Counted from the first letter of the stretch, positions 7,576-59,688 are shown. The stretch: 64,000 nt of DNA from Minisyncoccota bacterium (GCA_035546615.1 DASZWM010000003.1:32001-96000); one strand, 5' to 3'. The notes: a model not told the origin generated them from the sequence alone. Made by a program: numbers and translations.

Positions 7576-9459
7576 ATGGAAGAAAGAAAGAAATCGTTTC
7601 CCCCGCGAAGCGGCGCGGGTGCAGCAGGCGGCGGCAGGCGCTCCGGCGGAGGCCGCCGCGGCTTCGGCGGCAAAGGCGGGCGTCCCCGCCAGGGCGGCCC
7701 CCGCCCGCACCAGGTGCATCCCCCGCGCGAGATAAAAGAAAGCTTCGCGTCCGGCAATCCGGCCGACCCGGTCATTCCGCCGCTTGAAGCCGGAAATATC
7801 CGCATCATTCCCCTGGGCGGCGTGGAGGAAATCGGCAAGAACATGACGGCGGTCGAATTCGGCGACGATATCCTTATCATCGACGCCGGCTTCCAGTTCC
7901 GCGAGGCCGACACCCCGGGCATCGACTATATCCTTCCCAACACCAAGTACCTGGAGGAGCGCAAGGACAAGATCCGCGGGCTTTTCATCACGCACGGCCA
8001 CCTCGACCACATCGGCGCCATCCCCTACATCATCGACCGCATCGGCTATCCGGAGATCTACACCCGCCGGCTCACCGCCATCATGATAAAGAAGCGCCAG
8101 GAGGAATTCCCCAACCTGAAGCCGGTCACCATACACGAGGTTGAAAAGGACGACACCGTAAAGGTCGGCGGCCTGCGCGTGCGCTTCTTCTCCGTCTATC
8201 ACACCATCCCCGACTCGATGGGCATCATCGTCGAGACGCCGTACGGCGACCTGGTCTTCACCGGCGACCTGCGCCTGGACCACGTCGACGGCGTGCCGAC
8301 CGAGACCGAAGAGAAGGAGTTCTCCTGGTTCGCCGACCGCAAGGTCCTCTTCCTCGCCGCAGACTCGACCAACTGCGAGCGCCCCGGCTTCTCGCTCCCC
8401 GAGCGCATCGTCAAGAAGAACCTCGACGAGATAATAGCCACCACCCCCGGCCGCCTCATCATCGGCACGTTCTCCAGCCAGCTCGAGCGCCTCATGCGCA
8501 TGATAGAGCAGGCCGAGAAGGTGGGCCGCAAGATACTGGTCGAGGGCCGCTCCATGAAGGTCAACATCGAGATTGTGAAGCACCTCGGCCTTCTTAAGGT
8601 GAACGAAAAGACGTTCATCGACGCCGCCCAGCTCGAAAGCCTCCCCGACAGCAAGGTGGCCATTCTCGCCACGGGCGCCCAGGGCGACGAGTTCGCCGCG
8701 CTCATGCGCATCGCTATGAAGACGCACAAGTACGTCAAGATAAAGAAGGGCGACACTGTCGTGCTCTCCTCCTCCATCGTGCCGGGCAACGAGCGAAGCG
8801 TGCAGAAGCTCAAGGACAATCTTTCCCGCCAGGGCGCGCGCATCATCCATCGCGACACCATGGACGTTCACGCCTCGGGCCACGCCAACCGCGACGAGAC
8901 CTTCTGGATACATCAGAAGATAAACCCGCGCTTCTTCATGCCCATGCACGGCTACCACTACATGCTGCGCGTCCATGCCGACATCGCCAAGGCCTGCGGC
9001 CGCAGCGAGGACGAGGTGGTCATCCCCGACAACGGCTCCGTCATCGAGATCCGCGATGAAGGCCAGAGGATAGTCCGCCTCAAGGAGAGCGCGCCCAATT
9101 CCCTGCGCCTCGTGGACGGCTTCGCGATCGGCGACATCCAGGAAGTCGTTATCCGCGACCGCAACGTCTTGGCGGCCGAAGGCATGTTCGTCATCATCGC
9201 CACGGTCAACCCCAAGAACGGCCGCCTGCGCAAATCGCCCGACATCATCTCCCGCGGCTTCGTGTACCTGCGCGAATCGCAGGAACTGCTCCAGCAGGCG
9301 CGCATCATCGTTAAAAAGACGATCGAGGACACGGCAGCCGGCCAGCAGCCCGTCAACTTCGACATGGTCAAGAACAACGTTACCGACGCGGTAGCGAAGT
9401 TCCTCTTCGAAAAAACAAACAAGCGCCCCATCGTCATCCCCGTAGTGCTGGGAGTATAA
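7576..9459 (+). CDS. rnj: Ribonuclease J (metallo-beta-lactamase/beta-CASP) with RG-rich N-terminal extension
   Basis: HGHLDHIGA motif and beta-CASP region. Full-length similarity to RNase J, plus a 60-aa Arg/Gly-rich N-terminal extension. Confidence 0.95.
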   Translation: MEERKKSFPPRSGAGAAGGGRRSGGGRRGFGGKGGRPRQGGPRPHQVHPPREIKESFASGNPADPVIPPLEAGNIRIIPLGGVEEIGKNMTAVEFGDDILIIDAGFQFREADTPGIDYILPNTKYLEERKDKIRGLFITHGHLDHIGAIPYIIDRIGYPEIYTRRLTAIMIKKRQEEFPNLKPVTIHEVEKDDTVKVGGLRVRFFSVYHTIPDSMGIIVETPYGDLVFTGDLRLDHVDGVPTETEEKEFSWFADRKVLFLAADSTNCERPGFSLPERIVKKNLDEIIATTPGRLIIGTFSSQLERLMRMIEQAEKVGRKILVEGRSMKVNIEIVKHLGLLKVNEKTFIDAAQLESLPDSKVAILATGAQGDEFAALMRIAMKTHKYVKIKKGDTVVLSSSIVPGNERSVQKLKDNLSRQGARIIHRDTMDVHASGHANRDETFWIHQKINPRFFMPMHGYHYMLRVHADIAKACGRSEDEVVIPDNGSVIEIRDEGQRIVRLKESAPNSLRLVDGFAIGDIQEVVIRDRNVLAAEGMFVIIATVNPKNGRLRKSPDIISRGFVYLRESQELLQQARIIVKKTIEDTAAGQQPVNFDMVKNNVTDAVAKFLFEKTNKRPIVIPVVLGV

Positions 9460-9467
9460 AATCCTAC

Positions 9468-9496
9468 TTGACTTTTTAGTCGAATAGGTATATAAT
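9468..9496 (+). promoter_or_regulatory. Near-consensus sigma70 promoter (TTGACT-N17-TATAAT)
   Basis: Seen directly in sequence. No downstream plus-strand CDS. A structured ~100-nt region and a terminator follow. Confidence 0.5.
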
Positions 9497-9502
9497 AGAT
9501 TA

Positions 9503-9605
9503 AGTACGTGCGGGTGCCTGACAGCCCTGCACGAGGACTGGGGCCTTCCAGTGGCTCCTCCAGTCCGAAAAGGCGTACGCGGGTAACTCTGCGTACGTCT
9601 TTTTC
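9503..9605 (+). ncRNA. Candidate small RNA (promoter-to-terminator unit, two internal hairpins)
   Basis: Hairpins GUGCGGG..CCUGCAC and GGACUGG..CCAGUCC precede terminator stem GCGUACGC/GCGUACG plus a U-run. No match to known families could be tested. Confidence 0.3.
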
Positions 9606-9610
9606 TTTTC
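9572..9610. terminator. Bidirectional intrinsic terminator (also serves the minus-strand glycosylase gene)
   Basis: The palindromic GC stem is flanked by T-runs on both strands. Confidence 0.5.
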
Positions 9611-10398
9611 TAATCCAAAATCCTGAAGCGGCGGTTTTTCGCGGCTATCAGCCCTTCCTTCGCCAAGACCGCGACTATCGGAGCCAGGTCCTTGGAGCTG
9701 CGGCCGGTTGCGTCTATCAGCTCGTCGAATGTTTTGGGCATTTTGAGTAGCTCGCGCAGTATCAGGCCGCGTACCTGGCGGTAGGAGCCCTCGAATTTGC
9801 TCTGCTTCGTATAGTGCTTGCTTCTGCTGTTGAGCTTAATTCCCTTCTGCTTCAGGTACGAGCCGTAGTCCATGAGCGCGGCGTAGAAGTCGCGGGGCTC
9901 CATGCCCGACTTCGTGAGCGCCTCTTTCACTTTCGGGAGTATTTCGATATCGGGAATAAGAGAGTCGCTTCGGCGCCTGAAAAGATAGTGGATGAACACG
10001 GTGCGGATGTTCGTCTCTATAAATACGCTTGGCTTGTTATGGGCGAACGCCTCCACCGCGGCGGCGGTGTACGAACCGACGCCCGGAAGCTTGCCGCCGG
10101 TCCAGCCTTCCCGGGCGATTATCTTCGCGGCCTCGTGGAGATACTTCGCGCGGCGGTTGTAGCCCAGCCCCTGCCAAAGCGCCAGCACTTCGGAGAGCTT
10201 TGCTTTTGCGAGCCTCTGCGCGGTCGGGAACTTCCGTATGAACGTCTCGTACTTCGGCACTACCCTATCCACCTGCGTCTGCTGGAGCATCACTTCCGAC
10301 ACCAGTACTCCATACGGGTCATGCGTGTGGCGCCACGGCAGGTGTCCCCTTCCTCGGGTTTTATAAAAGCTTTTGAGGTCGCGCAGCAGCTTCGGCAT
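9610..10398 (-). CDS. HhH-GPD DNA glycosylase, MutY-like (A/G-specific adenine glycosylase-like) lacking Fe-S cysteines, C-terminal winged-helix
   Basis: VMLQQTQV...KLPGVGSYTAAAV HhH-GPD motifs, no Cys cluster, and a C-terminal ...LILRELLK...ELIDATG wHTH-like segment. Confidence 0.75.
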   Translation of the reverse strand: MPKLLRDLKSFYKTRGRGHLPWRHTHDPYGVLVSEVMLQQTQVDRVVPKYETFIRKFPTAQRLAKAKLSEVLALWQGLGYNRRAKYLHEAAKIIAREGWTGGKLPGVGSYTAAAVEAFAHNKPSVFIETNIRTVFIHYLFRRRSDSLIPDIEILPKVKEALTKSGMEPRDFYAALMDYGSYLKQKGIKLNSRSKHYTKQSKFEGSYRQVRGLILRELLKMPKTFDELIDATGRSSKDLAPIVAVLAKEGLIAAKNRRFRILD

Positions 10399-10458: not shown

Positions 10459-10710
10459 TTAGGCCTTCGGGCGGGCATCGGAGACCGTGAGCGTGCGGCC
10501 GTCGAAGTCCTTGCCATTCCACATGGAAATGGCGGCATCGGCGCCTGCATCATCGGCCATCTCCACGAAGCCGAAGCCACGAGAGCGACCGGTCTCACGA
10601 TCGGTGACGATGGACGCGGTGGCTACCTCTCCCGCCTTGGCGAACGCGTCTTTCAACTCGTCGCCCGTAGTGCGGTACGGAAGGCCTCCCACGAACAGTT
10701 TGCGTACCAT
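10459..10710 (-). CDS. RNA-binding protein with RRM domain
   Basis: RNP-2 KLFVGGLPY and RNP-1 RGFGFVEM motifs. The track start at 10725 is TTG; an ATG lies at 10710. Confidence 0.85.
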   Translation of the reverse strand: MVRKLFVGGLPYRTTGDELKDAFAKAGEVATASIVTDRETGRSRGFGFVEMADDAGADAAISMWNGKDFDGRTLTVSDARPKA

Positions 10711-10851
10711 ATTCGCGAAATACAATGAAGTTTACTAAGTTCCTTGTAAGACGACCCTCCGATACCGCAAAACGGCACACTGGAGAACTTACTGTAGAAC
10801 GCCCTCAAAGTAGCATAGGGCGGAGAGCGGCGCAATGCCGCCTGAAAGCCG

Positions 10852-20054: not shown

Positions 20055-20213
20055 ATGAACAATTCAAGCAACGTAAATACGATCCTCATAGTGGTGGTGC
20101 TGGTGCTCTTGGTGGGCGGCGGCGTGTGGTGGTACAAGACCTACGGCCCGGGTGCCGCGCCCAAGGACGGCGGAGGCCTTAACATCCAGATAGGCGGCGA
20201 CAGCAGCCAGTAA
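20055..20213 (+). CDS. Small membrane-anchored protein (52 aa, GGGVWWY anchor)
   Basis: Not in the ORF track (below its size cutoff). An ATG with a TM helix plus the GG-WWY motif, followed by a terminator. Confidence 0.4.
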   Translation: MNNSSNVNTILIVVVLVLLVGGGVWWYKTYGPGAAPKDGGGLNIQIGGDSSQ

Positions 20214-20227
20214 TTTTTTGGTACAGC

Positions 20228-20262
20228 GCAAAACCGCGCGGCCTTTGAGGCCGCGCGGTTTT
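20228..20262. terminator. Bidirectional rho-independent terminator
   Basis: AAAACCGCGCGGCC-TTTGA-GGCCGCGCGGTTTTTGC, a perfect 12-bp stem with flanking A- and T-runs. Confidence 0.65.
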
Positions 20263-20288
20263 TGCTTTGCTTTCCTGTGCCGCTTGGA

Positions 20289-21694: not shown

Positions 21695-22105
21695 TTATCT
21701 GATGCGGATCCGGCGGAGGGCTTTGCGGGCTTTTTTGTAGTCCGGAATGGTCTCTTCGACCAGGGCCCAGAAGGCGGGGCTGTGGTTCATTTCCTTCAGG
21801 TGGCACAGCTCGTGGGTTACGACATATTCGGCCAGGCGCGGCGGCAAGAAAAGGAGGCGGTAGTTGAAGTTGAGGTTGCCGTGCTCCGAGCAGCTCCCCC
21901 ACCGCGAACGGCTGTTCTTTATGAATACCCGGCGCACGGCGTAGTCGTAGTGCGCGTTGAGGCGCGCGATGAGCGCATGGACAAGCGCGCGAGCCTCTTC
22001 CTTATACAGCTGGAACTTCCGCGAACTAGCCGCCGAAGCCGGGCGTCGTCTCCGTACCCGCCGCCGATATACGATTTTGTATCCAAACACCGAGGTATTG
22101 TACAA
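21695..22105 (-). CDS. YgjP-like metal-dependent hydrolase (DUF45/M48-like, HExxH)
   Basis: WGSCSEHGNLNFNYRLLFLPPRLAEYVVTHELCHLKEMNHSPAFW. TTG start, Arg-rich N-terminus. This is the last GC-rich gene before the island. Confidence 0.6.
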   Translation of the reverse strand: MYNTSVFGYKIVYRRRVRRRRPASAASSRKFQLYKEEARALVHALIARLNAHYDYAVRRVFIKNSRSRWGSCSEHGNLNFNYRLLFLPPRLAEYVVTHELCHLKEMNHSPAFWALVEETIPDYKKARKALRRIRIR

Positions 22106-22141
22106 CCTTACTTAATGGCAGGCTCAGATATAGATTTATAA

Positions 22142-22540
22142 CTACAAAATTGAGATAACTTTCTTAACGACGGAGTCTGAAGCACTCTTGAGTCGATGTT
22201 CCCATATTCTTAATACCTTCCAATTCATACTTTTTAATTGTTTATTAACCAATCTATCTCTTTTCTTATTTCTTTCTATTTTGTTAGTCCAATATGCGCG
22301 ATTTGTCTTTGGAACTCTACAGTGAGTCTTACATCCGTGCCAAAAACAAGAGTCAATGAAAATTGCTGTCTTAGAAACAGAAAAAACAATATCAGGTCTG
22401 CCTGGCAATTTTGCCACATGAGTTGTAAACTTTAGTTTACTTTTTTTCAGTTGCTTCTGAAAAGATTTTTCTATACCTGAATTTCTACTCTTAATGAGAC
22501 GCATTATTTCGCTGCGTCTTCCAGAAGATACATTGTCCAT
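22142..22540 (-). CDS. vsr: Very short patch repair endonuclease Vsr
   Basis: FIDSCFWHGC...P.TN..YW..KI..N..RD motifs. Confidence 0.9.
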   Translation of the reverse strand: MDNVSSGRRSEIMRLIKSRNSGIEKSFQKQLKKSKLKFTTHVAKLPGRPDIVFSVSKTAIFIDSCFWHGCKTHCRVPKTNRAYWTNKIERNKKRDRLVNKQLKSMNWKVLRIWEHRLKSASDSVVKKVISIL

Positions 22541-22544
22541 GCCT

Positions 22545-23612
22545 TTATTCTTCTATATCCCAACCTGTTGGAAGTGTGATTTTGGTATAGGCTCTTTCTT
22601 TGATAAAAGGGACAATCTCTGCGCTCGAAGGAAACTCTGCGTCAAATTCTCTCGTTAAATCACTTAACAAAGTGCCAGCAAGTCGTTCTCTATATTCTTT
22701 ACTGAGGCAAAGAGTATACCAGTCATGCAAATCTTTAAGAGTAATTATTCCTTGCACACGCTCAATAATCCCGAGCTGTTGTAGCAGGGCCTCAATAGGT
22801 TTCTTTTCTGCGTCTCGACAAACAATTACAATCCTGTCCGCTTCGATTCCCTCGACAATTCCTTCGGTTACTTCAGGAGTAAGTGTAAGGTGTTTTACCT
22901 GGATAGCTGTTCCAAAATTTGCCCACATATCTAATCCCCTATCCGCCGCATTCGTTACGCCAACTCTAAAAAGGGCTGCGGGCATAGCTACTTGAGTCTT
23001 TCTGGCATCTATGCCTAAAACCATTTTTATAAAACCTTCAAAATCAGTAAGTATTTCTTTGTCTTCATTTTTAATCGAAAGGGTGATTTCCGCTTTTAAT
23101 GCTCGTACAATAGCGGAAAAAAGAGCATGCACTGCTATTTCATATATTTTATCTGTGCTTCGTCTCAAGCCAGGACTTGATGTAAAAAGTTCCACTAATT
23201 CCATTATGGAAAAAGTGTCCACTGTTGACTGTTCGATATAGTCTCTTACCCGATGAACAGATAGTAACTTATTTTGTAAAGCTTTATAAATATAAGCCTC
23301 TACTCCGCCCTTACTTGTTGTATTTATTTTTCCTAACACTGCCAATAGTTGGGGCGGCATAGCATTAGGCTCAAAGATATTATCTTGGTACTTTGCGCTA
23401 GAAGTACTGCTCCTCCCAACAAGTAAGGTGGAGACTTCATCTCTCCAACGTTTAGAGACAGAGCGATAACTTTCTAGATCAGTTAGTTCTAGCTTTTTCT
23501 TAGTTCTATGATAGAAAAGTATCTCCGCTATCTGTATAGGTTTATAGAAGTGCACTCTGGCCTTCTTTATAACTGAATCCAGAGCCGCTTTTGCTTCTTC
23601 AGCCATTGACAT
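22545..23612 (-). CDS. Putative type II restriction endonuclease (family unassigned)
   Basis: The 355-aa ORF lies between the C5-MTase and vsr and overlaps the MTase stop by 14 nt. No family was identified by eye. Confidence 0.5.
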   Translation of the reverse strand: MSMAEEAKAALDSVIKKARVHFYKPIQIAEILFYHRTKKKLELTDLESYRSVSKRWRDEVSTLLVGRSSTSSAKYQDNIFEPNAMPPQLLAVLGKINTTSKGGVEAYIYKALQNKLLSVHRVRDYIEQSTVDTFSIMELVELFTSSPGLRRSTDKIYEIAVHALFSAIVRALKAEITLSIKNEDKEILTDFEGFIKMVLGIDARKTQVAMPAALFRVGVTNAADRGLDMWANFGTAIQVKHLTLTPEVTEGIVEGIEADRIVIVCRDAEKKPIEALLQQLGIIERVQGIITLKDLHDWYTLCLSKEYRERLAGTLLSDLTREFDAEFPSSAEIVPFIKERAYTKITLPTGWDIEE

Positions 23613-24621
23613 ACGCCCGTTCTACCATATTTATGTCTTTTCCGCTAAACAATTCAGTTTGTTCAATAAAAGGAACCGGGTCTTTCGACATTGCTTCAAC
23701 CATTGCGTGGGCCACTGCTTCCATCTGAGGAACCACTACAGCATTACCAGCTTGCTTCCGGATTTGCTGGTCAGCAACAACAAATTTATATGAATCGGGA
23801 AAACCCTGTAATCTAAACATCTCTCTAGGAGTCAGTCTTCTTTCTCCATTTACAATAAGATAGTTATATGAACCATTAGCCCTAAGAGCGCATGAATAAG
23901 CATTCACGCCTAGGTTTCCAGACTTATTTTCGTGCAAGATTAACGGACGAGAATGAAGTTCTTTGTGTTGTTCTTTTAATTGTCTCTGGACTTTCTGCAA
24001 CATATAATCGCTAAGAAAGTGTTTTTTATCGACCTCATTATCAGGCTCAAGGATGTCTTCAAGAGTTTTCTTTTTTCCCCTCCCTTTGGTAGGAAATTCA
24101 AAAGGGTAGTTTTCTCTAAAACCTACAATCATTATTCGCTCTCTCTTTTGCGGAACGCCAAAATCTAGACCATTTAAAACTTTAAAGTGCACAAAATAAC
24201 CTAGTTTTCTTAAACTATTTAGAATTACTGAAAACGTCCTTCCTTGATCATGATTGGTAAGTTGTTTTACATTTTCCAAAAATAGAGCTTTTGGTTTCTT
24301 TGCCTTTAGAATTCTCTCAACATCAAAAAACAACGTGCCTCTTGTTTCAGAGAAACCTTTCATATTCCCCATGATGCTAAAAGCTTGGCATGGAAAACCG
24401 CCTGTCAAAATATCATGGTCAGGCACATCTTTTGCAACTATTTTCGTTATATCTCCATCTGGCTGGTCGCCGAAATGATTCTTATACATCTTCTGCGCAG
24501 CTTCATCCCATTCTGATGTAAAAACACATTTACCTCCTGCCGCTTCAAAACCAAGTCTAATGCCTCCAATTCCTGCAAAGAGATCGATAAAAGTAAATTT
24601 ATTCTTATTCGTTGGAGCCAT
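23599..24621 (-). CDS. dcm: DNA (cytosine-5)-methyltransferase
   Basis: Motif I FIDLFAGIGG, motif IV GGFPCQAFS, motif VI ENV, motif VIII QRRERI-like. Confidence 0.95.
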   Translation of the reverse strand: MAPTNKNKFTFIDLFAGIGGIRLGFEAAGGKCVFTSEWDEAAQKMYKNHFGDQPDGDITKIVAKDVPDHDILTGGFPCQAFSIMGNMKGFSETRGTLFFDVERILKAKKPKALFLENVKQLTNHDQGRTFSVILNSLRKLGYFVHFKVLNGLDFGVPQKRERIMIVGFRENYPFEFPTKGRGKKKTLEDILEPDNEVDKKHFLSDYMLQKVQRQLKEQHKELHSRPLILHENKSGNLGVNAYSCALRANGSYNYLIVNGERRLTPREMFRLQGFPDSYKFVVADQQIRKQAGNAVVVPQMEAVAHAMVEAMSKDPVPFIEQTELFSGKDINMVERAYVNG

Positions 24622-24851
24622 AGAGCAATATATTTTAACACCTATTTTAAGCTTGCTATATTTTTAATAATAGCACTGAAATCTATATTTATACACAATA
24701 TACACAAGTCTTGGGGATAACTTTAGTGAGGGCCGTTTTTGGTCCAGGATAGCCGTATCCGCCAGCCGATAAAAATAGAGTAAGGGGGTAAAGATCAGCA
24801 ATCGTGGGATGAGCGTGTCTAATAGTCACCTAAGGATTTATAGCCATAAGG

Positions 24852-25193
24852 CTATTGTGGCAAACCCTTAATTTTGTTTCTGAAGAAATTAAATCGCATC
24901 TTAGCATAGTCCCAAAGAAAAGAGCAGAACGACTTATTTGGATGTCTTTTTATTTCACGCAAGTTCTCGAAAGCATAATTAAGTATATCTATAAATAATA
25001 ACCCTGGTACAACACCCAATGCGAATATATACCAATCAGAAAAACGTGTTTTTAACAAACTGTAAGTCGCATTTACTGCAATTCCAAGAACTACCGCAAG
25101 CGTCGCACCGAGTATCACAAATGCCCACTGTATTTGTAGACTTCTTTCCTCTTGTAAATCACCCTTGTTCATGGCGAATATATCTAATAACAA
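24852..25193 (-). CDS. Small two-TM membrane protein (candidate effector of the Ubl/E1 module)
   Basis: Two hydrophobic helices (WAFVILGATLAVVLGIAV; WYIFALGVVPGLLFIDIL). TTG at 25193 or ATG at 25172. It lies 8 nt after the upstream stop. Confidence 0.5.
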   Translation of the reverse strand: MLLDIFAMNKGDLQEERSLQIQWAFVILGATLAVVLGIAVNATYSLLKTRFSDWYIFALGVVPGLLFIDILNYAFENLREIKRHPNKSFCSFLWDYAKMRFNFFRNKIKGLPQ

Positions 25194-25201
25194 GTAAAAA
25201 A

Positions 25202-25612
25202 TTATTCGAAGAAGCTACGCAATTGGACTAATATCCAGTTTCCAAATCGTCGCCACCATGACAGGGAGGAATGAATAAAGTATGCATCCTTGATGGTATC
25301 GTCATATTCTCGCCCGTGGCGTATCTGTTCTCGAGTCATCTTCGACGCCCAAATCACTTGATTTTCAATAATCCAATAATGTGACTGACAAGGATGATTC
25401 CAGTTTCCTATTGAAGGACGTAGCGAGACCACCCCCTGCCAATCAACTAGCGTATATTCGGTCTTACGGAGAGGGGTAACGATTTTAGTGCCACAACTGC
25501 AACAGCACAAATGGCTCGCGGTTCCGAAACGTCGTGAGATATATAGAACACCACTCTCAAGCTCTCTTGGTATGAACTCAACATATTCAGGACGCACCAA
25601 CTCTGTCTTCAT
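25202..25612 (-). CDS. Cys-rich Zn-ribbon-like protein (DUF6527-like, recalled)
   Basis: HLCCCSCGTK...NHPCQSH cluster. The ATG at 25612 overlaps the E1-like gene stop (ATGA-type coupling). Confidence 0.5.
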   Translation of the reverse strand: MKTELVRPEYVEFIPRELESGVLYISRRFGTASHLCCCSCGTKIVTPLRKTEYTLVDWQGVVSLRPSIGNWNHPCQSHYWIIENQVIWASKMTREQIRHGREYDDTIKDAYFIHSSLSWWRRFGNWILVQLRSFFE

Positions 25613-26808
25613 ATACAATCCTCTTTTGTAAGGGCGTGGGTCGCAATCGTGTACAGCGAATGACGTTCTCGCACATCATCAGCATAAAAACCACACAATT
25701 GCTTCCATTTTCCCACAGCCATGGCAGCATTTAGCATATTTAGGTCCGCAACCTGCATATTACGGTACACCGCCTCGGCCGGCACTTTTGCAAATGAAAC
25801 AACTTCCGCAATATGTCCATGATGGTCGGGTGTTCCAACTGTAAAGCGACACTGTCCGCGCAGAGACGCCTGATTATCGAGTGCCAAGTCTATTCCAACG
25901 TCTATGAACGGCACACCAAGAGCAATAAGGCCATTAAGTATGTTCTTCCGGCTCTCTCCGTCGTCGATAGCAACAAACACGAAGTCGAACCCGGACAGCT
26001 CGTGGAGATGCGCGTCCTGGACATAGTAGGGATGACGCTTCAAGCCCTTGTGTATACGTTCGTATATACCACTGAACCAATCCACTTTTAGTGGATTGTT
26101 AAGCTCCTGCTTCATCGGAGCACCCGGTGCTCTAAACGCGTTGTGGAGTTCGAACGTATCCCCATCGAAAATGTGGATTTCTTTCACCGGCGTCTTAGCA
26201 ACAAGGTCGAGAATATACGAACCAGTACCACCTAGTCCTATAATCGCCACCCGACTTGCAAGGAGTTTCGCCGTGGCCGCTCCAATACCAGCACGGGTTG
26301 TTGCCATATCAGGATAATGGAATGCGAGTTCCTGAGCTTCGACTACCGCCGGTACTGGTTTTTCACTTCGTGGATCGCAAGTCCGATCAATTGCTTGAGC
26401 TTCGTGCCAAATCAGACGAACATATGTCCAGATTTTTTCGTAGTAGTCGGCATACTTGCGCTTATCAGCGTGCACACGCGAGAAGGCGACAGTCGTCTTA
26501 ATCCCATCGCCCTTATCCTCCTCAGCGTTGTTCGAAATCATCTCCGTCATTAGTTGACCATCCGCGTTGTGCGGGGGTTCTCCAATCCACCAACACTGAT
26601 GGTTGGAACATGGATTCACTGTCTTTCCGGCCGCATCAATTTCAAGTGGGCAATAGAGAATTCCAGGCACTATTTTGCCTTCAGAGGTAACAGCAGGAAT
26701 TCCCTCAATTAAAAGATGAGAGGCAGTCCCTTGAATGACCCGGAGACGAAAACCTTCCGCCTCCAACTTTGCCAAATCGGCATTATGACTTATCCGTATT
26801 TCTGACAT
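25609..26808 (-). CDS. E1-like ThiF/MoeB-fold enzyme with ~165-aa N-terminal domain of unknown fold
   Basis: VAIIGLGGTGSYILDLVAKTPVKEIHIFDGDTFELHNAFR is a ThiF nucleotide-binding motif. The N-terminal domain has conserved-looking C/H residues (YCPLE, NPCSNHQCWW, PPHN). Confidence 0.8.
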   Translation of the reverse strand: MSEIRISHNADLAKLEAEGFRLRVIQGTASHLLIEGIPAVTSEGKIVPGILYCPLEIDAAGKTVNPCSNHQCWWIGEPPHNADGQLMTEMISNNAEEDKGDGIKTTVAFSRVHADKRKYADYYEKIWTYVRLIWHEAQAIDRTCDPRSEKPVPAVVEAQELAFHYPDMATTRAGIGAATAKLLASRVAIIGLGGTGSYILDLVAKTPVKEIHIFDGDTFELHNAFRAPGAPMKQELNNPLKVDWFSGIYERIHKGLKRHPYYVQDAHLHELSGFDFVFVAIDDGESRKNILNGLIALGVPFIDVGIDLALDNQASLRGQCRFTVGTPDHHGHIAEVVSFAKVPAEAVYRNMQVADLNMLNAAMAVGKWKQLCGFYADDVRERHSLYTIATHALTKEDCI

Positions 26809-27040
26809 CGAAGTTCATATGATCGACCACATCTACACTTTGGCCCCGGCGAAGCGATCCTTCGTGTCCACCTGGCTTAGTCCATGAAACGCTGTAGCGA
26901 ACATCGCCTCCGAACGGACCAGTTGGGAATGCGAGCTTGATGACTTGCTCGTAGCTAATATCGTGTTCACCCCACTTCTCTTGAATACCGTTCACAACAA
27001 TGCTTATGGTGTGTCCATGCCCTTTATTATCGTCTGCCAT
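26783..27040 (-). CDS. Multiubiquitin-like beta-grasp protein (85 aa, no C-terminal GG)
   Basis: ISIVVNG...ISYEQVIKLAFP...RYSVSW...GQSVDVVDHMNFDVR matches, from memory, the multiubiquitin domain pattern of prokaryotic E1/E2 operons. It overlaps the E1-like gene start by 26 nt. Confidence 0.5.
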   Translation of the reverse strand: MADDNKGHGHTISIVVNGIQEKWGEHDISYEQVIKLAFPTGPFGGDVRYSVSWTKPGGHEGSLRRGQSVDVVDHMNFDVRNTDKS

Positions 27041-27224
27041 ATAATTTTAATTGTCGGCTTTTTAATTTAAGTGCGGCACCGGTCGACCGCACTTGTATCG
27101 TACACCCATTTCTGATACCCTTGCAAGGTAACTAGATGTATCAAATGTTACCTAAAGTACCATATTTGTTATATCTGATACCTGTTGTTACAACCTATAA
27201 CAAGTTACGCACAGATTTCAAATC

Positions 27225-27584
27225 ATGAGAAAATCATCCGCTACAATAAACAATGAAAGCAGATCCACAGAGCTTGAAATCCGGAAAGAGATTGGCAGAC
27301 GTATCGCTGAAATGCGTAGCAAACTGGGGCTTACAGCTCGCCTTGTTGCCAAAGAACTTCATGTCTCACGCGAAGCCATTACTCACATTGAAACAGGGCG
27401 AAACAATATATCTGCCGTATCGCTGTGGGAATTGGCGACTCTCTTCCATTGTGATATTGCTGATTTTTTCCCTGATATTCCTAATGGATATTCTTTAACT
27501 AGGGTCGATATTAATAAAGTAGCACAAATGAGTGGAAAGACAGGGGCGGCATGGGCTGAAAAGATTTTTGGGAAAAAGAAATAA
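27225..27584 (+). CDS. XRE-family HTH transcriptional regulator (CapH/ImmR-like)
   Basis: HTH_3 signature IGRRIAEMRSKLGLTARLVAKELHVSREAITHIETGRNNIS. Confidence 0.85.
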   Translation: MRKSSATINNESRSTELEIRKEIGRRIAEMRSKLGLTARLVAKELHVSREAITHIETGRNNISAVSLWELATLFHCDIADFFPDIPNGYSLTRVDINKVAQMSGKTGAAWAEKIFGKKK

Positions 27585-27588
27585 ATAT

Positions 27589-28083
27589 ATGATGTCAGAA
27601 AGAATTGAGAAAAAAGCGGAGGAAGTCTTAAGCGCACTGAATGTTAAGTCAATACCTATCTCTGTTGAAGAAATCGCGAATCAATTAAAGATCAAGATAG
27701 GAAGAGCACCTAGTAGTGAATTTTCTGGAATGTTGATTCGAAAAGATGGTCGAGCACTTATGGGTATAAATAACAGTGAAGGCACTGCGAGACAACGATT
27801 CACTATTGCGCATGAACTTGGGCATTATTTCTTACATCCACAAAATGATACTTTTGTAGACTATAGGCAGAACGAAAAAGAACCAAGAAATCATAGAGAA
27901 CGAGAGGCTGATATGTTTGCAGCAGCACTCTTAATGCCTAGGAAAGAAGTAACAAAAGACTTTCAGAAAATTGTTAGGAAAGGATTTTCAGAAATTGAAC
28001 TTCACAAACTGGCAGGAAAATATGAAGTGAGCGACAAAGCAATGAGATTTAGGTTAGTAAACTTAAATATGCTATTAGGTTAA
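27589..28083 (+). CDS. ImmA/IrrE family Zn-metallopeptidase (CapP/ImmA-like)
   Basis: HELGHYFLH HExxH motif in the COG2856 fold context. It lies immediately downstream of the XRE gene. Confidence 0.85.
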   Translation: MMSERIEKKAEEVLSALNVKSIPISVEEIANQLKIKIGRAPSSEFSGMLIRKDGRALMGINNSEGTARQRFTIAHELGHYFLHPQNDTFVDYRQNEKEPRNHREREADMFAAALLMPRKEVTKDFQKIVRKGFSEIELHKLAGKYEVSDKAMRFRLVNLNMLLG

Positions 28084-28087
28084 GATT

Positions 28088-28348
28088 TTATTGTCTACTC
28101 CCTTGTGATCCTAATCTATCCGTAAAAGGTCCCTCACGATGGGCCGCCGGATCTACATCCTTTTTTGTAATAACCTGGGGAAAGCGGGTATTTTCTTCAA
28201 TCTGCTCTAGTAACGTGACTATTCTGTTCAATTTCCAGTACCAGGTAAGGATTTCCCTGATCAGGAGGAATATCAGAGCGCCCACGCATAGGACAAAAAC
28301 GATATTTGGTAGCTGGGACCAGTAATATTGAAATAAGGGTTGAAGCAT
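28088..28348 (-). CDS. Small membrane protein (one TM helix), downstream partner of AbrB-like gene
   Basis: IVFVLCVGALIFLLI helix. Coordinates are from the track. Confidence 0.4.
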   Translation of the reverse strand: MLQPLFQYYWSQLPNIVFVLCVGALIFLLIREILTWYWKLNRIVTLLEQIEENTRFPQVITKKDVDPAAHREGPFTDRLGSQGSRQ

Positions 28349-28351
28349 ATA

Positions 28352-28540
28352 TTACTTCTTCCAGTCGCGGATTATCAGCTTCTTTCTCTTCAGATCCACC
28401 TCTACGGTGAGCTTTTGGCGCTCTTTCCACTTGAACTTGCGGATAGCCTCCACCGGAAGCGCGACCGTATAGGTACTTCCCCGCCCCGTCTTGGTGAGCT
28501 TGCGGACCTGCTTTTTCTGCCCCGCCTTCGGCCGTGCCAT
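28352..28540 (-). CDS. AbrB/MazE/SpoVT-like small DNA-binding protein (candidate antitoxin)
   Basis: VRKLTKTGRGSTYTVALPVEAIRKFKWKERQKLTVEV resembles the looped-hinge helix fold. Confidence 0.45.
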   Translation of the reverse strand: MARPKAGQKKQVRKLTKTGRGSTYTVALPVEAIRKFKWKERQKLTVEVDLKRKKLIIRDWKK

Positions 28541-28600
28541 GCGGATATGATACCACCGAACTCCTGAGCTAACTCAAGAGTTAGCTCAGGAGTTAATTAA

Positions 28601-28627
28601 AAACCGGCGCCTGGGGCGCCGGTTTGG
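28601..28627. terminator. Bidirectional intrinsic terminator at the island's right edge
   Basis: AAAAACCGGCGCC-TGGG-GCGCCGGTTT. Confidence 0.6.
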
Positions 28628-28642
28628 CCAAGGTTGGCCGGA

Positions 28643-28918
28643 TTACTGAAGCGTGGGGCTGGAGCGGGTCTCGCTTATAGCCCAGTTGCCGTACAGGGTA
28701 TCGAGCTCGAGCTTGAGCTGCACGACCCGCTCGACCATCCCGACGTCTACGACGCGGAGATTAATCATAAAGGCCTCGGCATTGCGTATCGCCGCTTTGA
28801 TCTCCTTCTTCTTCGCGATGATCTCGGGCGGGAGCCGCCGCTTCCCGCTGTGGAAATCTCCGGCAAGCCGGATCATTGTCCGCGCCTCGTCGGGAGTAAG
28901 TACCCGATACTGATCCAA
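28643..28918 (-). CDS. Hypothetical protein
   Basis: A 91-aa ORF with protein-like composition in a GC-rich context. Confidence 0.4.
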   Translation of the reverse strand: MDQYRVLTPDEARTMIRLAGDFHSGKRRLPPEIIAKKKEIKAAIRNAEAFMINLRVVDVGMVERVVQLKLELDTLYGNWAISETRSSPTLQ

Positions 28919-28983
28919 AGCCTCTCTCCTGTCTTATAAGCGGCCACCCGCTTTCGGGTACGATACTAGCATCGAAAAAAGAA

Positions 28984-29016
28984 ATAAAACAGGCCCGCGG
29001 CTTGCGCCGCGGGCCT
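28984..29016 (-). terminator. Intrinsic terminator downstream of 29040..29465
   Basis: GGCCCGCGGC-GCAA-GCCGCGGGCC followed by TTTTATTTCTTTTTT on the minus strand. Confidence 0.6.
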
Positions 29017-29039
29017 CTTGTCTGCCTAACTCCGTGGAG

Positions 29040-29465
29040 TTAGGACCTCTTCCCTGCCGGCTCCATGTAGAAGATCCAGAACTCCAGCGACGAATTGCCG
29101 ACATCCACCATCCAGCCGTGGGCGTACTCGTCGCCGTTATTCACCACGCCGTAGTCGATGTTTACTTTCCCGACCTGGACCGGACCGACCTGGTTGAGGC
29201 CGCAGCGGGGATAGCCGCGAGCGTCGACCTCCTGGTGATACACGGTGTATAGCGCCGTGCTTTCGGCCGGATCCCGATAGCGGGCGTCCAGGAGGGTCTT
29301 CAGATCTTCCTGAGATTTGCACCACAGGACCGGCTGGCGGAACCAACCGTAAAATTCCTCGCCCGGCGGCTGCGCCGAGACGGGAGCTACGAGGCACGCC
29401 ATGCACGCGAGAGCAATCAAAGAACGGTTGAACATCTTGGACCTCGTTGGTTGGTCCTTGGACAT
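29040..29465 (-). CDS. Secreted hypothetical protein
   Basis: Signal peptide MFNRSLIALACMACLVAPVSA from the internal ATG at 29435. Confidence 0.5.
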   Translation of the reverse strand: MSKDQPTRSKMFNRSLIALACMACLVAPVSAQPPGEEFYGWFRQPVLWCKSQEDLKTLLDARYRDPAESTALYTVYHQEVDARGYPRCGLNQVGPVQVGKVNIDYGVVNNGDEYAHGWMVDVGNSSLEFWIFYMEPAGKRS

Positions 29466-29589: not shown

Positions 29590-29961
29590 ATGATCAATTG
29601 CCTTATGGTCCGGGGCACCGGCATCACGAACAGCATGTCGAGCCTTCTCTACCGGACCGCCATGCAGATGGTGCAGGAAAAGAAAAGCTCGAAGAAGTTC
29701 AAGGGCGGCGACTGCCAGGGCGTCCTTTCGACAGAATGGAAGTACGCCGGCATGGGCACGATATCGGGCCTGCAGTTCAGCGCGAAGGTGGAGAGCGCGG
29801 CGGGTACGACCGAGGTTACGTTCATCATCCGCTCGCTGGACCTGGACGAACCGGATGACGACTCGTGGGAAGCGGTACCCGACCAGGAGACGTTCGACCG
29901 CTACGCGGTTGCGGACGCGCTCGAAGAGCGGGACGCGATTCCCAGATCCAGGCTCAACTGA
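29590..29961 (+). CDS. Hypothetical protein
   Basis: ATG with a good SD (AGGAGA). 123 aa. Confidence 0.45.
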   Translation: MINCLMVRGTGITNSMSSLLYRTAMQMVQEKKSSKKFKGGDCQGVLSTEWKYAGMGTISGLQFSAKVESAAGTTEVTFIIRSLDLDEPDDDSWEAVPDQETFDRYAVADALEERDAIPRSRLN

Positions 29962-30020
29962 TGCGGATTGCTCCCGCCGAAAAAGCCCCGCGCGCCCCAC
30001 GGCGCGCGGGGCTTTCTGCA

Positions 30021-30049
30021 TGGCAAACGGCCCGCGCTTTTGCTACAGT
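30021..30049 (+). promoter_or_regulatory. Promoter copy 2: TGGCAA-N17-TACAGT
   Basis: A near-identical 35-nt element (ATGGCAAA..CCGCGCTTTTGCTA.AGTAC.GG) to copy 1. Confidence 0.5.
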
Positions 30050-30081
30050 ACGGGCGGATAGAAACTTGAGGAGTGCAGCTG

Positions 30082-39147: not shown

Positions 39148-39469
39148 AGGATTCAATAAAAATCGCCCGCGAGGGGCATATATATAGTATACATCACTTT
39201 CCGCATACAGCAAAGAGCGCCCGGGAGGGCGCTCTTTGCTGTGTTCCCCACGTATGTATCTTAGGAGTTGCGGGACGAGGACGTGTCCGAGCCCGAAGAG
39301 CCGTTGTCGCGGCTGTTATTGGTGCTGCCGGCAGAAGAGCCCTGATCGCTGCCCGTGTTGCGCTTGTCGTCGTTCATATTGTTTGCCATATGATTGTATT
39401 TATTATTGCTTGAATAATTAATACTGTTCGACCTGCACTCAGTCTACAGAACCGACCCTGAAGAGCACA

Positions 39470-46687: not shown

Positions 46688-47443
46688 TTATTTCTGAGTT
46701 AGCGCTTGCGGGTGCTTGCGGCTCCAGGCGTATAAAGCGACGGCGCCCGAGGTTGCGACGTTGAGCGACTCCGCCCGCGGGCTTATCGGCACCGACAGCA
46801 TCTGGTCGCACAAGGCTTTGGCGGACGCGGGGATGCCTTCGGACTCGTTGCCGAGCACGAAGAGCGCGGGCTCGTTGAAGTCTTCGCTGTCAATGCCCTT
46901 CTTTGCGTCCCCGGCAAGGCCGTGCACGCGGACGCCCTTTTTCTTGAGCTGTGCTATCGCCTGCTGGATGTTCTCCACGGTGACGAGCGGAATGCGGAAC
47001 GCCATGCCGGCGGACGCCTTGATAACTGCCCCGGTTATAGGCGACTGATTGTGCGTGGGCATAAGCACGGCCGCAGCGCCGAATGCAGCGGCAGAGCGGA
47101 TAGCTGAGCCGACATTGTGCGGGTCCTGCACTTCATTCAGAAAGAGAAGTGCGGTGTCCGGAGTCGGGTTGAACGTATCCATGAACTTCTCGAACGGCAG
47201 CGCGAAACTGCCGAGCGAAATGAGCGCGATAATGCCCTGATGCGGAGCGCCGCCTTCGGCCTGCGAGGTCGCCTTGCGCTCATCGAGCGGCTCGACGGGA
47301 ATGCCGGAATGCCTGATAAGCTCCTGGAGCTTGCGGTCTTCCATCCGCGGCGAAAGGTGTATCTTGCGCAAAACCTGCGGCGCGTGCCGCAGGGCTTCCT
47401 CGACGGCATGCTTGCCGTATATGTAGATCTTGCTTTGCTTCAC
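46688..47443 (-). CDS. TrmH/SpoU family RNA 2'-O-methyltransferase
   Basis: SpoU_sub_bind N-terminus plus a SpoU methylase domain (LVLGNESEGI...). Confidence 0.85.
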   Translation of the reverse strand: MKQSKIYIYGKHAVEEALRHAPQVLRKIHLSPRMEDRKLQELIRHSGIPVEPLDERKATSQAEGGAPHQGIIALISLGSFALPFEKFMDTFNPTPDTALLFLNEVQDPHNVGSAIRSAAAFGAAAVLMPTHNQSPITGAVIKASAGMAFRIPLVTVENIQQAIAQLKKKGVRVHGLAGDAKKGIDSEDFNEPALFVLGNESEGIPASAKALCDQMLSVPISPRAESLNVATSGAVALYAWSRKHPQALTQK

Positions 47444-47532
47444 GTTCTTATAATTATACTCCTTTTGGAGCTTTTTGTCAATTAGCCCTTCGGAAAAGGC
47501 TTACATAGGGGCTTATTTGAAATTAGGGAACA

Positions 47533-56157: not shown

Positions 56158-57015
56158 CTAGGCCAGGAAGGGGTCAAGCGCCCCTTCAAGCACGCCTTCG
56201 GCATCGCGGACCTCCACATTGGTGCGGTGGTCCTTCACTAATTTGTACGGATGAAGCACGTAGGAGCGTATCTGATTGCCCCATTCGATCTTGCCGACTG
56301 CGGTTGAAAGTTCGTCTATGCGCTCTTTGCGCTCCTCTGCCATAAAATGGAGCAGTTTCGCCTCTACTATCGCAAGCGCCTTCTCCTTGTTCGCTCCCTG
56401 CGTGCGCTCGCCGTCAACGTGCGCGGAAATGCCGGTAGGCTTATGCACGATGCGCACCGCCGTTTCGCGCTTGTTGACGTTCTGGCCGCCCGGGCCGCCG
56501 GAGCGCGCCACCGTTATTTCAAGGTCGTCTTCGGGAATATCGATATCGGACACTTTTTCCAAGACCGGCAGGACCTCCACGAGCACGAAGGACGTGTGCC
56601 GTTTGGCGGAGGCATTGAACGGCGAGATGCGCACGAGCCGATGCACGCCGTACTCGTTTTTGAGCGTGCCGTACGCGCGCTTCCCCGCTATTTCTATCGA
56701 AAGGTTGCGGTAGCCGCCGCGGTCGTTCCGGTTCTCGTGCAGCAGCTTGTAGCCCCAGCCGCGGTTTTCTATGAACTTGCGGTACATCTCAAAGAGCATG
56801 TGCGCGAAATCCTCGGCATCGTCCCCGCCCGCGCCCGCGACGATGGTGAGTATGGCGTTGCCGTTCTCGTATTTGCTGCCCCCCTCAAGCTCTGCCTTGA
56901 GGTCCTGGAGCTCTTTTATGAGATTCCGGGCCTCGGCAGGGTTGCTCCAAAAGTCCGGAGCCTGCATCGCTCCTTCTATCTCCCTGATGCGCTTTTCTAC
57001 CTCTTCTTTGGTCAT
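56158..57015 (-). CDS. prfB: Peptide chain release factor 2 (short form, 285 aa, single ORF)
   Basis: SPF and GGQ motifs. It starts at a position equivalent to just after the usual RF2 frameshift site. The ATG directly abuts the tRNA-Thr CCA end. Confidence 0.9.
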
Positions 57016-59687: not shown

Positions 59688-59688
59688 C

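What the first reader, a model, noticed from the sequence alone, without database searches (positions are those of the whole stretch)
9468..9610. Stand-alone consensus promoter driving a ~100-nt structured transcript that ends at a bidirectional terminator
TTGACT-N17-TATAAT, one of the best sigma70 matches in the window, lies 9 nt after the RNase J stop with no plus-strand ORF downstream. About 75 nt later there is a GC-rich palindromic terminator with U-runs; the same hairpin terminates the convergent MutY-like gene.

The transcribed region folds into two further hairpins (GUGCGGG/CCUGCAC and GGACUGG/CCAGUCC). This is a good candidate for an abundant small RNA. I could not match it to SRP, 6S or tmRNA by eye.
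Basis: seen in the sequence. Interest (0 to 1): 0.5.

Follow-up and report, generated by a model that had tools for sequence, protein, structure and literature searches.

The report
Orphan candidate small RNA after RNase J
Between the RNase J gene and a convergent DNA-glycosylase gene of an uncultured Patescibacteria (Adlerbacteria-like) genome lies a real-looking promoter, two RNA hairpins and a strong terminator that would make a ~105-nt non-coding RNA. It matches no known RNA family and is absent from about 87 related genomes, so it remains an unproven, lineage-specific small-RNA candidate.

Summary
TTGACT-17-TATAAT (9468-9496, +) is one of only three >=11/12 sigma-70 matches in 64 kb (0.39 expected). 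The other two sit in front of groES/groEL and a SpoU methylase gene. About 70 nt downstream is a 17-bp hairpin (-23 kcal/mol) plus a U-run, and between them two hairpins with no credible ORF. The fold is unusually stable: z -5.9 overall, and the body alone is in the top 0.3-0.7% of genomic windows. G.U pairs favour the + strand.

The interpretation as an abundant small RNA is only partly supported. No Rfam family matches. BLAST, nhmmer and a covariance model find no copy in 87 related loci. Exact-pattern scans of metagenome and viral collections and BLAST of phage and plasmid records gave only chance hits. The organism has been sampled essentially once, so covariation cannot be tested.

The site is a hypervariable slot. 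Relatives have either overlapping RNase J and glycosylase genes or unrelated orphan small ORFs with their own promoter and terminator.

Best reading (confidence about 0.4): a lineage-specific, independently transcribed ~105-nt RNA that is also the RNase J 3'UTR. The main rival is a leftover promoter/terminator cassette. Low-to-moderate interest.

The parts
7576..9459 (+). RNase J gene (627 aa). It has no terminator of its own before the unit, so its mRNA must run into 9460-9609.
   Evidence: ORF. Pfam RNase_J_b_CASP 3.6e-42, RNase_J_C and Lactamase_B. No hairpin or T-run between 9459 and 9567.
9468..9496 (+). Sigma-70-type promoter TTGACT-17-TATAAT (11/12). The predicted start is at A9502, A9503 or G9504.
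   Evidence: It is one of 3 sites >=11/12 in the window against 0.39 expected. The other two precede groES/groEL and a SpoU methylase ORF.
9503..9609 (+). Predicted non-coding transcript of about 102-107 nt (the candidate sRNA). It is also the RNase J 3'UTR.
   Evidence: MFE -58.3 kcal/mol, z -5.9. No ATG and no SD-preceded ORF. No Rfam match. The + strand is about 14 kcal/mol more stable than the - strand.
9507..9533 (+). Hairpin H1 (10 bp with one G.U pair, a bulged U and a 6-nt loop). It starts about 4 nt from the predicted 5' end.
   Evidence: -16.5 kcal/mol alone, z -3.1, 90% of the ensemble.
9535..9566 (+). Hairpin H2 (GGACUGG/CCAGUCC plus GGCC/GGCU, a 7-nt loop and a CCU internal bulge).
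   Evidence: I6; -18.0 kcal/mol, z -2.2.
9555..9561 (+). CUCCUCC, an anti-Shine-Dalgarno-like motif in the 3' side and bulge of H2. It is partly unpaired (probabilities 0.36-0.77 for the central bases). It is a possible seed, and this is speculative.
   Evidence: This 7-mer is expected 0.012 times per 68 nt in this genome. It was noticed post hoc.
9567..9609 (+). Intrinsic terminator: a 17-bp stem with 4 G.U pairs, loop UAAC, then UUUUUCUUUU. It also lies immediately 3' of the convergent glycosylase stop codon.
   Evidence: (-23.2 kcal/mol). The 3' half plus the following CTTTTCTAATCCAAAATC is homologous in relative L083.
9610..10398 (-). Convergent HhH-GPD (MutY/Nth-type) glycosylase gene. 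Its stop codon abuts the U-run.
   Evidence: (HhH-GPD 2.5e-18; annotated as A/G-specific adenine glycosylase).
9458..9465 (.). Left copy of the 8-nt direct repeat AAAATCCT that brackets the whole unit. The right copy is at 9617-9624, inside the glycosylase 3' end.
   Evidence: D5. About 1.5 such 8-mers are expected by chance in the region searched, so this is only a weak hint of an insertion.

Best explanation
I read this as a lineage-specific, independently transcribed short non-coding RNA gene. It sits in the variable slot between RNase J and the convergent glycosylase gene.

Inferred mechanism:
1. The housekeeping sigma factor fires from TTGACT-17-TATAAT and starts at about 9503.
2. The RNA folds co-transcriptionally into H1, H2 and the terminator hairpin, and is released at the U-run at about 9604-9609. 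The product is about 105 nt.
3. RNase J lacks its own terminator. The same 3' module is therefore also made as the RNase J 3'UTR and could be released by processing.
4. H1 begins about 4 nt from the 5' end and the terminator caps the 3' end. In an RNase J organism this arrangement is expected to block 5'-to-3' and 3'-to-5' exonucleolytic decay, giving a stable RNA.
5. If the RNA regulates anything, the most likely mode is base-pairing through the partly exposed CU-rich CUCCUCC stretch of H2 with Shine-Dalgarno regions (GGAGG) of target mRNAs.

What is shown: the promoter, the hairpins, the terminator, the lack of coding potential, the strand bias and the uniqueness of the unit.
What is inferred: transcription, stability and any regulatory role.
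For: - The promoter scores 11/12 and is among the 3 best in 64 kb (0.39 expected). The other two drive groES/groEL and a SpoU methylase gene.
- Several relatives (L001, L005, L013, L014, L018) also have a TTGAC-type promoter just after the RNase J stop. A promoter at this position is therefore normal for the clade.
- The + strand terminator is strong, at -23.2 kcal/mol with 9 U in 10 nt.
- The fold has z -5.9 overall and z -3.2 for the body, which is in the top 0.3-0.7% of genomic windows.
- G.U pairs make the + strand about 14 kcal/mol more stable than the - strand.
- There is no ATG, no SD-led ORF and no translated similarity to anything in relatives.
- The ORF-less cargo at the same position in relative L013 is unstructured (z -0.6). 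The structure here is therefore not a general property of the slot.
Against: - There is no expression data.
- No homolog was found anywhere. Rfam gave nothing. blastn, nhmmer and the covariance model gave nothing in 87 related loci. Metagenome, viral, phage and plasmid searches gave only chance matches.
- The nearest relatives with the same synteny have the two genes overlapping or carry unrelated small ORFs at this spot.
- About 50 other windows in this 64 kb fold as stably, mostly terminators.
- No target in the window stands out above shuffled controls.
- The CUCCUCC seed idea is post hoc.
Confidence: 0.4

Rival explanations
1. This is a decayed expression cassette. The slot normally carries a small protein gene with its own promoter and terminator. 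Here the ORF has been lost or replaced, leaving promoter plus a short spacer plus terminator. A short transcript may be made but has no function of its own.
For: - In about 20 relatives the same junction holds unrelated orphan ORFs of 56-150 aa, each with a strong SD, its own promoter and its own terminator.
- L013 shows just such a wreck: promoter, SD, a 3-codon ORF and a terminator.
- The window's terminator 3' half is homologous to the terminator that follows a 65-aa ORF in L083.
- The window's cargo is not conserved at all.
Against: - The 64-nt spacer is far more structured than chance or than the L013 remnant (z -3.2 against -0.6). Its G.U-based strand asymmetry also favours the + strand.
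- There is no trace of an SD or start codon, and no translated similarity to any relative's cargo.
- The promoter is not homologous to those of L083, L003, L006 or L007.
Confidence: 0.27
2. This is purely a 3'-end module for the two convergent genes. The hairpins stabilise the RNase J mRNA 3' end and the terminator insulates RNase J and glycosylase transcription from each other. The promoter match is incidental in an AT-rich spacer.
For: - RNase J has no other terminator.
- The terminator abuts the glycosylase stop codon and has an A-tract on one side and a U-tract on the other.
- Relatives L011, L018 and L022 carry a terminator directly after RNase J.
Against: - An 11/12 promoter match is expected only 0.39 times in the whole window, and the other such sites are functional-looking.
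- Several relatives do without any spacer, with the genes overlapping by 4 nt or more. The module is therefore not needed for the gene pair.
Confidence: 0.15
3. This is a cis-antisense or transcriptional-interference element. The promoter fires towards the 3' end of the glycosylase gene. Collision, read-through antisense RNA, or pairing of the complementary terminator regions then tunes glycosylase expression.
For: - The geometry is convergent.
- The candidate RNA and the glycosylase mRNA would share about 40 nt of perfectly complementary terminator sequence.
- The minus-strand terminator is weak, so glycosylase transcripts may extend across H2 and H1.
Against: - The + strand terminator is strong (17 bp, long U-run), so little read-through into the gene is expected.
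- Relatives regulate the same gene without it.
Confidence: 0.08
4. This is a small inserted mobile or foreign segment (MITE-like or a recombination scar) that happens to carry a promoter and a terminator.
For: - The 8-nt direct repeat AAAATCCT brackets the unit exactly.
- Removing one repeat copy and everything between the two copies would restore an overlapping convergent gene pair like those seen in relatives (inference).
- The promoter half (9460-9502) is AT-rich, in contrast to the ~60% GC of the surrounding genes.
Against: - There are no terminal inverted repeats.
- The unit is single-copy in the window and in all loci examined.
- An 8-mer repeat is at chance level.
- L083 shares the right-hand junction but not the repeat.
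- Phage, plasmid and viral searches gave no match.
Confidence: 0.05
5. It encodes a tiny or leaderless protein, either from GTG 9508 (80 codons) or from GTG 9550 (11 codons, preceded by GAGGA).
For: - This genome appears to use at least one leaderless GTG start, the SpoU methylase 9 nt after a 12/12 promoter.
- GAGGA lies 13 nt upstream of GTG 9550.
Against: - The 80-codon frame runs through the terminator with no in-transcript stop, and it is R/S/P-rich antisense-type sequence.
- GTG 9508 is 4-6 nt from the predicted start, so the mRNA would not be truly leaderless.
- The 11-codon frame has poor SD spacing, and its start is buried in H2.
- There are no homologs.
Confidence: 0.03

Closest known systems
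Type-I 3'UTR-associated sRNAs with their own promoter that share the terminator of the upstream mRNA (e.g. DapZ and MicL in enterobacteria; my own knowledge)
   Same: - A short RNA is transcribed from its own promoter at the 3' end of a protein gene.
- It ends at the same intrinsic terminator as that gene's mRNA.
- The upstream gene has no separate terminator.
   Different: - The promoter lies just after the stop codon, not inside the coding sequence.
- There is no Hfq-type context and no conservation.
- No target is known.
- The organism is a CPR/Patescibacteria bacterium.
C-rich or CU-rich seed sRNAs of Gram-positive bacteria that pair with Shine-Dalgarno sequences (RsaE/RoxS, RNAIII hairpins; my own knowledge)
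   Same: - It is a compact multi-hairpin RNA with an intrinsic terminator.
- It has a CU-rich stretch (CUCCUCC) complementary to GGAGG-type ribosome-binding sites.
   Different: - There is only one such motif, it is only partly unpaired, and it sits in a stem or bulge rather than an apical loop.
- The Rfam models, including RsaE, give no match.
- No target is enriched above shuffled controls.
Bidirectional intrinsic terminators between convergent genes
   Same: A GC-rich palindromic hairpin with an A-tract on one side and a U-tract on the other sits exactly between two convergent stop codons.
   Different: - The hairpin is asymmetric. It is strong on the + strand (17 bp with 4 G.U pairs and a long U-run) and weaker on the - strand (A.C mismatches and 4 U).
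- It is preceded by a promoter and two extra hairpins.
Rfam ctRNA_p42d (RF00489), the best sub-threshold Rfam hit
   Same: Both have a terminator-like hairpin followed by UUUUUCUUUU.
   Different: The score is 17.4 bits against a gathering threshold of 50, with E 0.36 and mismatched pairs. It is a generic terminator resemblance, not membership.

Membership tests
Any Rfam 15 family (includes bacterial SRP, 6S, tmRNA, RNase P, RsaE, ctRNAs, riboswitches) | Covariance-model score at or above the family's gathering threshold | tested here: not met
   The whole window at gathering thresholds gives only 6 tRNAs. Region 9400-9700 at E<=10 gives only three chance-level hits of 13-19 bits against thresholds of 35-50. 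ARAGORN finds no tRNA or tmRNA there.
Independently transcribed bacterial sRNA gene (generic class) | Own promoter | tested here: met
   In silico only. The site scores 11/12 and is one of 3 such sites against 0.39 expected. The others precede real genes.
Independently transcribed bacterial sRNA gene (generic class) | Intrinsic terminator 50-300 nt downstream and no coding potential between | tested here: met
   The terminator is at 9567-9609. There is no ATG or SD-led ORF. No translated similarity was found.
Independently transcribed bacterial sRNA gene (generic class) | Detectable discrete transcript | not testable with these tools
   No transcriptome data are available here.
Independently transcribed bacterial sRNA gene (generic class) | Conservation of sequence or structure (covariation) in related genomes | tested here: not met
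   The only other copy is an identical contig. blastn, nhmmer and the covariance model find nothing in 87 related loci. Pattern scans were negative. Caveat: no relative closer than about 90% (RNase J) or 79% (glycosylase) protein identity exists in the databases.
Type-I 3'UTR-derived sRNA | Shares the terminator with the upstream mRNA, with its promoter at the 3' end of that gene | tested here: inconclusive
   The shared terminator follows from the sequence, since there is no terminator between 9459 and 9567. The promoter lies 8 nt after the stop codon rather than inside the coding sequence. Processing and expression are untested.
RsaE/RoxS-type C-rich sRNAs | Two or more unpaired C-rich (UCCC/CCCC) motifs in loops, and a match to the family model | tested here: not met
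   There is one CUCCUCC, partly paired, and no Rfam match.
MITE / REP-type repeated element | Terminal inverted repeats, multiple genomic copies and a target-site duplication | tested here: not met
   There are no TIRs. The unit is single-copy in the window and loci. Only a chance-level 8-nt flanking direct repeat is present. The rest of the genome could not be searched.
Bidirectional intrinsic terminator | A stable hairpin followed by a U-run on both strands | tested here: inconclusive
   The + strand has 17 bp and 9 U in 10 nt. The - strand has a weaker stem and only 4 U, and the scan does not flag it.

The most novel reading that the evidence does not exclude
The RNase J/glycosylase junction of Adlerbacteria-like Patescibacteria may be an 'expression slot', a site equipped with a promoter and a terminator whose cargo turns over rapidly. 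The cargo is a set of mostly unrelated orphan small ORFs in most genomes, nothing in some, and a structured non-coding RNA here. Under this reading the window shows either de novo birth of an sRNA or proto-gene, or the product of an unrecognised cassette-exchange process. The RNA itself would be one of the first lineage-specific regulatory sRNAs proposed for an ultra-small CPR bacterium. It might work with the conserved neighbouring RRM-domain RNA-binding protein (10459-10725, -).
Probability: 0.12. Interest if true: 0.55.

Novelty: new member of a known kind. Interest (0 to 1): 0.27.

Why it matters
Regulatory small RNAs are essentially uncharted in Patescibacteria/CPR, which have tiny genomes and lack Hfq-type chaperones (my own knowledge). 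A validated sRNA would be a useful first example. The junction's rapid cargo turnover could also be a small natural case study of how new short genes or RNAs arise next to an essential ribonuclease gene. As it stands this is a single-genome prediction with no conservation or expression support, so its practical value is as a candidate for metatranscriptome mapping, not as a discovery.

Tried and rejected
1. Rfam at gathering thresholds on the window and on 15 related loci, and at E<=10 on 9400-9700, found nothing relevant.
2. ARAGORN found no tRNA or tmRNA at the site.
3. blastn (word size 7) and nhmmer of 9460-9612 against 80 RNase J loci gave only 13-21-nt chance matches.
4. A single-sequence covariance model of H1+H2 was run against the window plus 83 loci (805 kb), and with filters off against 4 more close loci. 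The only real hit was the query itself.
5. Exact-pattern scans were uninformative.
   - The H1+linker pattern in metagenomes gave 0 hits.
   - An H2 19-mer in metagenomes gave 13 hits, all unrelated in their flanks.
   - The H2 pattern in viral contigs gave 0 hits.
   - The H1 stem pattern in viral contigs gave 94 hits. By my own rough estimate from the collection's size, a pattern of 15 specified bases should give a count of that order by chance. The hits were not inspected individually.
6. blastn against phage and plasmid collections gave nothing apart from a 30-nt AT-rich promoter-region chance hit.
7. Exact-protein look-up recovered only one identical 1.3-kb Logan contig, with no variation to analyse.
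8. Protein searches for closer relatives found none above 90% (RNase J) or 79% (glycosylase) identity.
9. tblastx and blastx of the spacer against relatives' loci and glycosylases, a test for a pseudogene remnant, returned noise.
10. A duplex-energy target scan over the whole window was not convincing. The best non-self hit was -71.9 kcal/mol against shuffle minima of -62 to -66. That hit reflects a chance-level sequence similarity. A first attempt timed out.
11. A literature search for Patescibacteria sRNAs returned nothing relevant.
12. I considered and rejected SRP, 6S, tmRNA, a riboswitch (there is no downstream gene), a small-protein gene and a MITE.

Full report
**What is there**

- The window comes from an uncultured Patescibacteria/CPR genome. 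The closest RNase J relatives are MAGs labelled Candidatus Adlerbacteria or Paceibacterota. The identical glycosylase and RNase J proteins are on record from an NCBI 'MAG TPA: Candidatus Paceibacterota bacterium' contig of 156.9 kb.
- RNase J occupies 7576-9459 (+). An HhH-GPD glycosylase occupies 9610-10398 (-).
- The 150-nt spacer between them reads, in order:
  - TTGACT-17-TATAAT at 9468-9496
  - hairpin H1 at 9507-9533
  - hairpin H2 at 9535-9566
  - a 17-bp terminator hairpin at 9567-9604, with UUUUUCUUUU running to 9609
- The glycosylase stop codon (9610-9612) directly abuts the U-run.

**Is it more than chance?**

- Only three sites in the 64-kb window, both strands, reach >=11/12 of the sigma-70 consensus. 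Block-wise shuffles that keep local composition predict 0.39.
- The other two sites lie directly upstream of groES/groEL (5333-5304, -) and of a SpoU-type methyltransferase ORF that appears leaderless (47481-47453, -). Consensus promoters therefore mark genuine transcription starts in this organism.
- The predicted transcript 9503-9612 folds at -58.3 kcal/mol (z -5.9, 0 of 200 shuffles). The body without the terminator folds at -34.5 (z -3.2).
- Against the genome's own background, the body is more stable than 99.3% of all 68-nt windows and 99.7% of those with similar GC. About 50 other windows, mostly terminators, do as well.
- The fold is strand-specific. One G.U pair in each of H1 and H2, and four in the terminator stem, become A.C mismatches on the other strand. 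The minus strand folds about 14 kcal/mol less well.
- There is no ATG in 9497-9612. The only formal ORF is a GTG frame at 9508-9750. It lacks an SD, runs through the terminator and lies antisense to the glycosylase.
The one qualification is that the terminator is strong on the + strand and only moderate on the - strand (4 U).

**Is it a known RNA?**

No.
- Rfam 15 at gathering thresholds finds only six tRNAs in the window.
- A permissive scan of 9400-9700 yields three chance-level hits. The best relevant one, ctRNA_p42d (17 bits against a threshold of 50), merely recognises a terminator shape.
- ARAGORN finds nothing at the site.

**Is it conserved?**

No, as far as this can be tested.
- The only other copy is a 100% identical 1.3-kb Logan contig.
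- blastn and nhmmer against 80 RNase J loci find nothing.
- A covariance model of H1+H2 finds nothing beyond itself in the window plus 83 related loci (805 kb) or in four further close loci with filters off.
- Exact-pattern scans of the metagenome and viral collections and BLAST against phage and plasmid records gave only chance matches.
- Translated searches show that the spacer is not a recognisable pseudogene fragment.
- The databases contain no close relative. The next RNase J is <=90% identical and the next glycosylase 79%. Absence of conservation is therefore weak evidence against function, and it leaves the covariation test unavailable.

**Context: a hypervariable slot**

- In the Adlerbacteria-like clade the order groEL-groES-secG-SBP5-RNase J-[slot]-glycosylase-RRM protein-sortase is conserved.
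- The slot itself varies.
  - The two genes overlap or abut in L008, L012, L020, L036, L082, L084 and L192.
  - In about 20 other genomes the slot holds 180-680 nt with one or two orphan ORFs of 56-150 aa. Each has a strong SD, its own promoter and its own terminator.
- The ten of these ORFs that I scanned have no Pfam family, and sixteen compared with one another are mostly unrelated.
- Several relatives place a TTGAC-type promoter within a few bases of the RNase J stop, as the window does.
- L013 has a promoter, an SD, a 3-codon ORF and a terminator. It looks like a decayed cassette, and its RNA is unstructured (z -0.6).
- The 3' half of the window's terminator and the following glycosylase 3' end are homologous to L083, where the terminator follows a 65-aa ORF.
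- An 8-nt direct repeat (AAAATCCT) brackets the window's unit, but at chance frequency.

**How it most likely works**

- RNase J has no terminator of its own. H1, H2 and the terminator are therefore transcribed in any case, as the RNase J 3'UTR.
- The near-consensus promoter would add an independent transcript of about 105 nt.
- H1 starts about 4 nt from the predicted 5' end and the terminator hairpin closes the 3' end. In RNase J-containing bacteria such end structures are known to protect RNAs from exonucleolytic decay (established knowledge). The RNA should therefore be stable. This is inference.
- A possible seed is CUCCUCC (9555-9561). It is complementary to GGAGG-type ribosome-binding sites and is partly unpaired in the ensemble. 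This motif was noticed post hoc, and a duplex scan of the window found no target clearly above shuffled controls.
- I therefore commit, at about 0.4, to 'lineage-specific independently transcribed non-coding RNA that doubles as the RNase J 3'UTR'.
- The rivals, with my confidence in each:
  - leftover promoter/terminator cassette: about 0.27
  - pure 3'-end and insulation module with an incidental promoter: about 0.15
  - cis-antisense or interference element: about 0.08
  - small insertion: about 0.05
  - tiny protein: about 0.03

**Comparison with known systems and verdict**

- In function it most resembles sRNAs with their own promoter that share the terminator of an upstream gene (the DapZ/MicL type).
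- More loosely, it resembles the CU/C-rich SD-targeting sRNAs of Gram-positive bacteria.
- It is not a member of any curated family.
- It is best filed as an unvalidated new member of the generic class 'promoter-to-terminator sRNA gene'.
- Interest is low to moderate. The signals are clean and CPR sRNAs are unexplored. However, the unit is a single-genome orphan in a fast-turnover slot, with no expression, conservation or target evidence.

Noticed in passing
window 22000-28100: A low-GC island (0.40-0.44 against about 0.60 elsewhere) carries defence-type genes: HaeII restriction endonuclease (22545-23612, -), C5 cytosine methylase (23599-24621, -), Vsr mismatch endonuclease (22142-22540, -), a ThiF/DUF6791 protein (25609-26808, -) next to a DUF6527 protein (25202-25618, -), and an IrrE/M78 peptidase (27532-28083, +). 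It is probably horizontally acquired.
   Followed up: partly
window 47443-47481 (-): A perfect 12/12 promoter (TTGACA-17-TATAAT) is followed only 9 nt later by the GTG start of a SpoU/TrmH-type RNA methyltransferase ORF (46688-47443), with no Shine-Dalgarno sequence. This looks like a leaderless mRNA with a GTG start.
   Followed up: partly
L002-L022, L083, L193-L195: junction between RNase J and the glycosylase: The junction is a hypervariable slot. The genes overlap in some genomes. In others there are unrelated orphan ORFs of 56-150 aa, each with its own promoter, strong SD and terminator. The ten ORFs scanned have no Pfam hit. A few recur: the L010 first ORF resembles the L193 ORF by eye, and L002 and L083 match weakly.
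   Followed up: partly
L003:5783-5870, L006:5882-5965, L007:5861-5950, L015:4075-4185: Four relatives share a conserved promoter and leader after RNase J: GTTGTTAAA...GATGCGCTATAGT..GTGCGCAGA...GGGAGG. A TGCGC-N9-GCGCA palindrome spans the -10 box and looks operator-like. Yet the ORFs behind this leader are unrelated.
   Followed up: partly
L013:5888-6075: A promoter (TTGACA...TATACT), a strong SD, a 3-codon ORF (MEV*) and a terminator look like a decayed small-gene cassette. The RNA is unstructured, with z -0.6.
   Followed up: partly
window 10459-10725 (-): An 88-aa RRM_1-domain RNA-binding protein lies immediately upstream of the glycosylase. It is conserved as a neighbour in relatives whatever the slot contains. 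It is a conceivable RNA chaperone in a lineage without Hfq, which is speculation.
   Followed up: no
window 28539-28645 and 28981-29053: These are the most stable local folds in the window (GC-corrected z down to -6.5). Perfect palindromes (ACTCCTGAGCTAACTC/GAGTTAGCTCAGGAGT, then CCGGCGCC/GGCGCCGG) sit between convergent ORFs at the edge of the low-GC island. They are probably stacked bidirectional terminators.
   Followed up: partly
window 59666-59755, 20197-20281, 39181-39270, 29950-30051, 56883-56950: Further unusually stable 68-nt folds (z below -4). The first adjoins tRNA-Met (59616-59688). None matches Rfam at gathering thresholds. They were not examined.
   Followed up: no
window 9458-9465 and 9617-9624: The exact 8-nt direct repeat AAAATCCT brackets the promoter-hairpin-terminator unit. 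Deleting one copy plus the insert would recreate an overlapping convergent gene pair like those in relatives. Its frequency is at chance level.
   Followed up: partly
L001:5845-6442 and L195:4998-5586: In the closest RNase J relatives (90-91% identity) the glycosylase gene is missing from this position. RNase J is followed by a 63-66-aa ORF and then directly by the RRM gene. In L001 that ORF is Cys-rich (its translation was read; the L195 ORF's was not).
   Followed up: no
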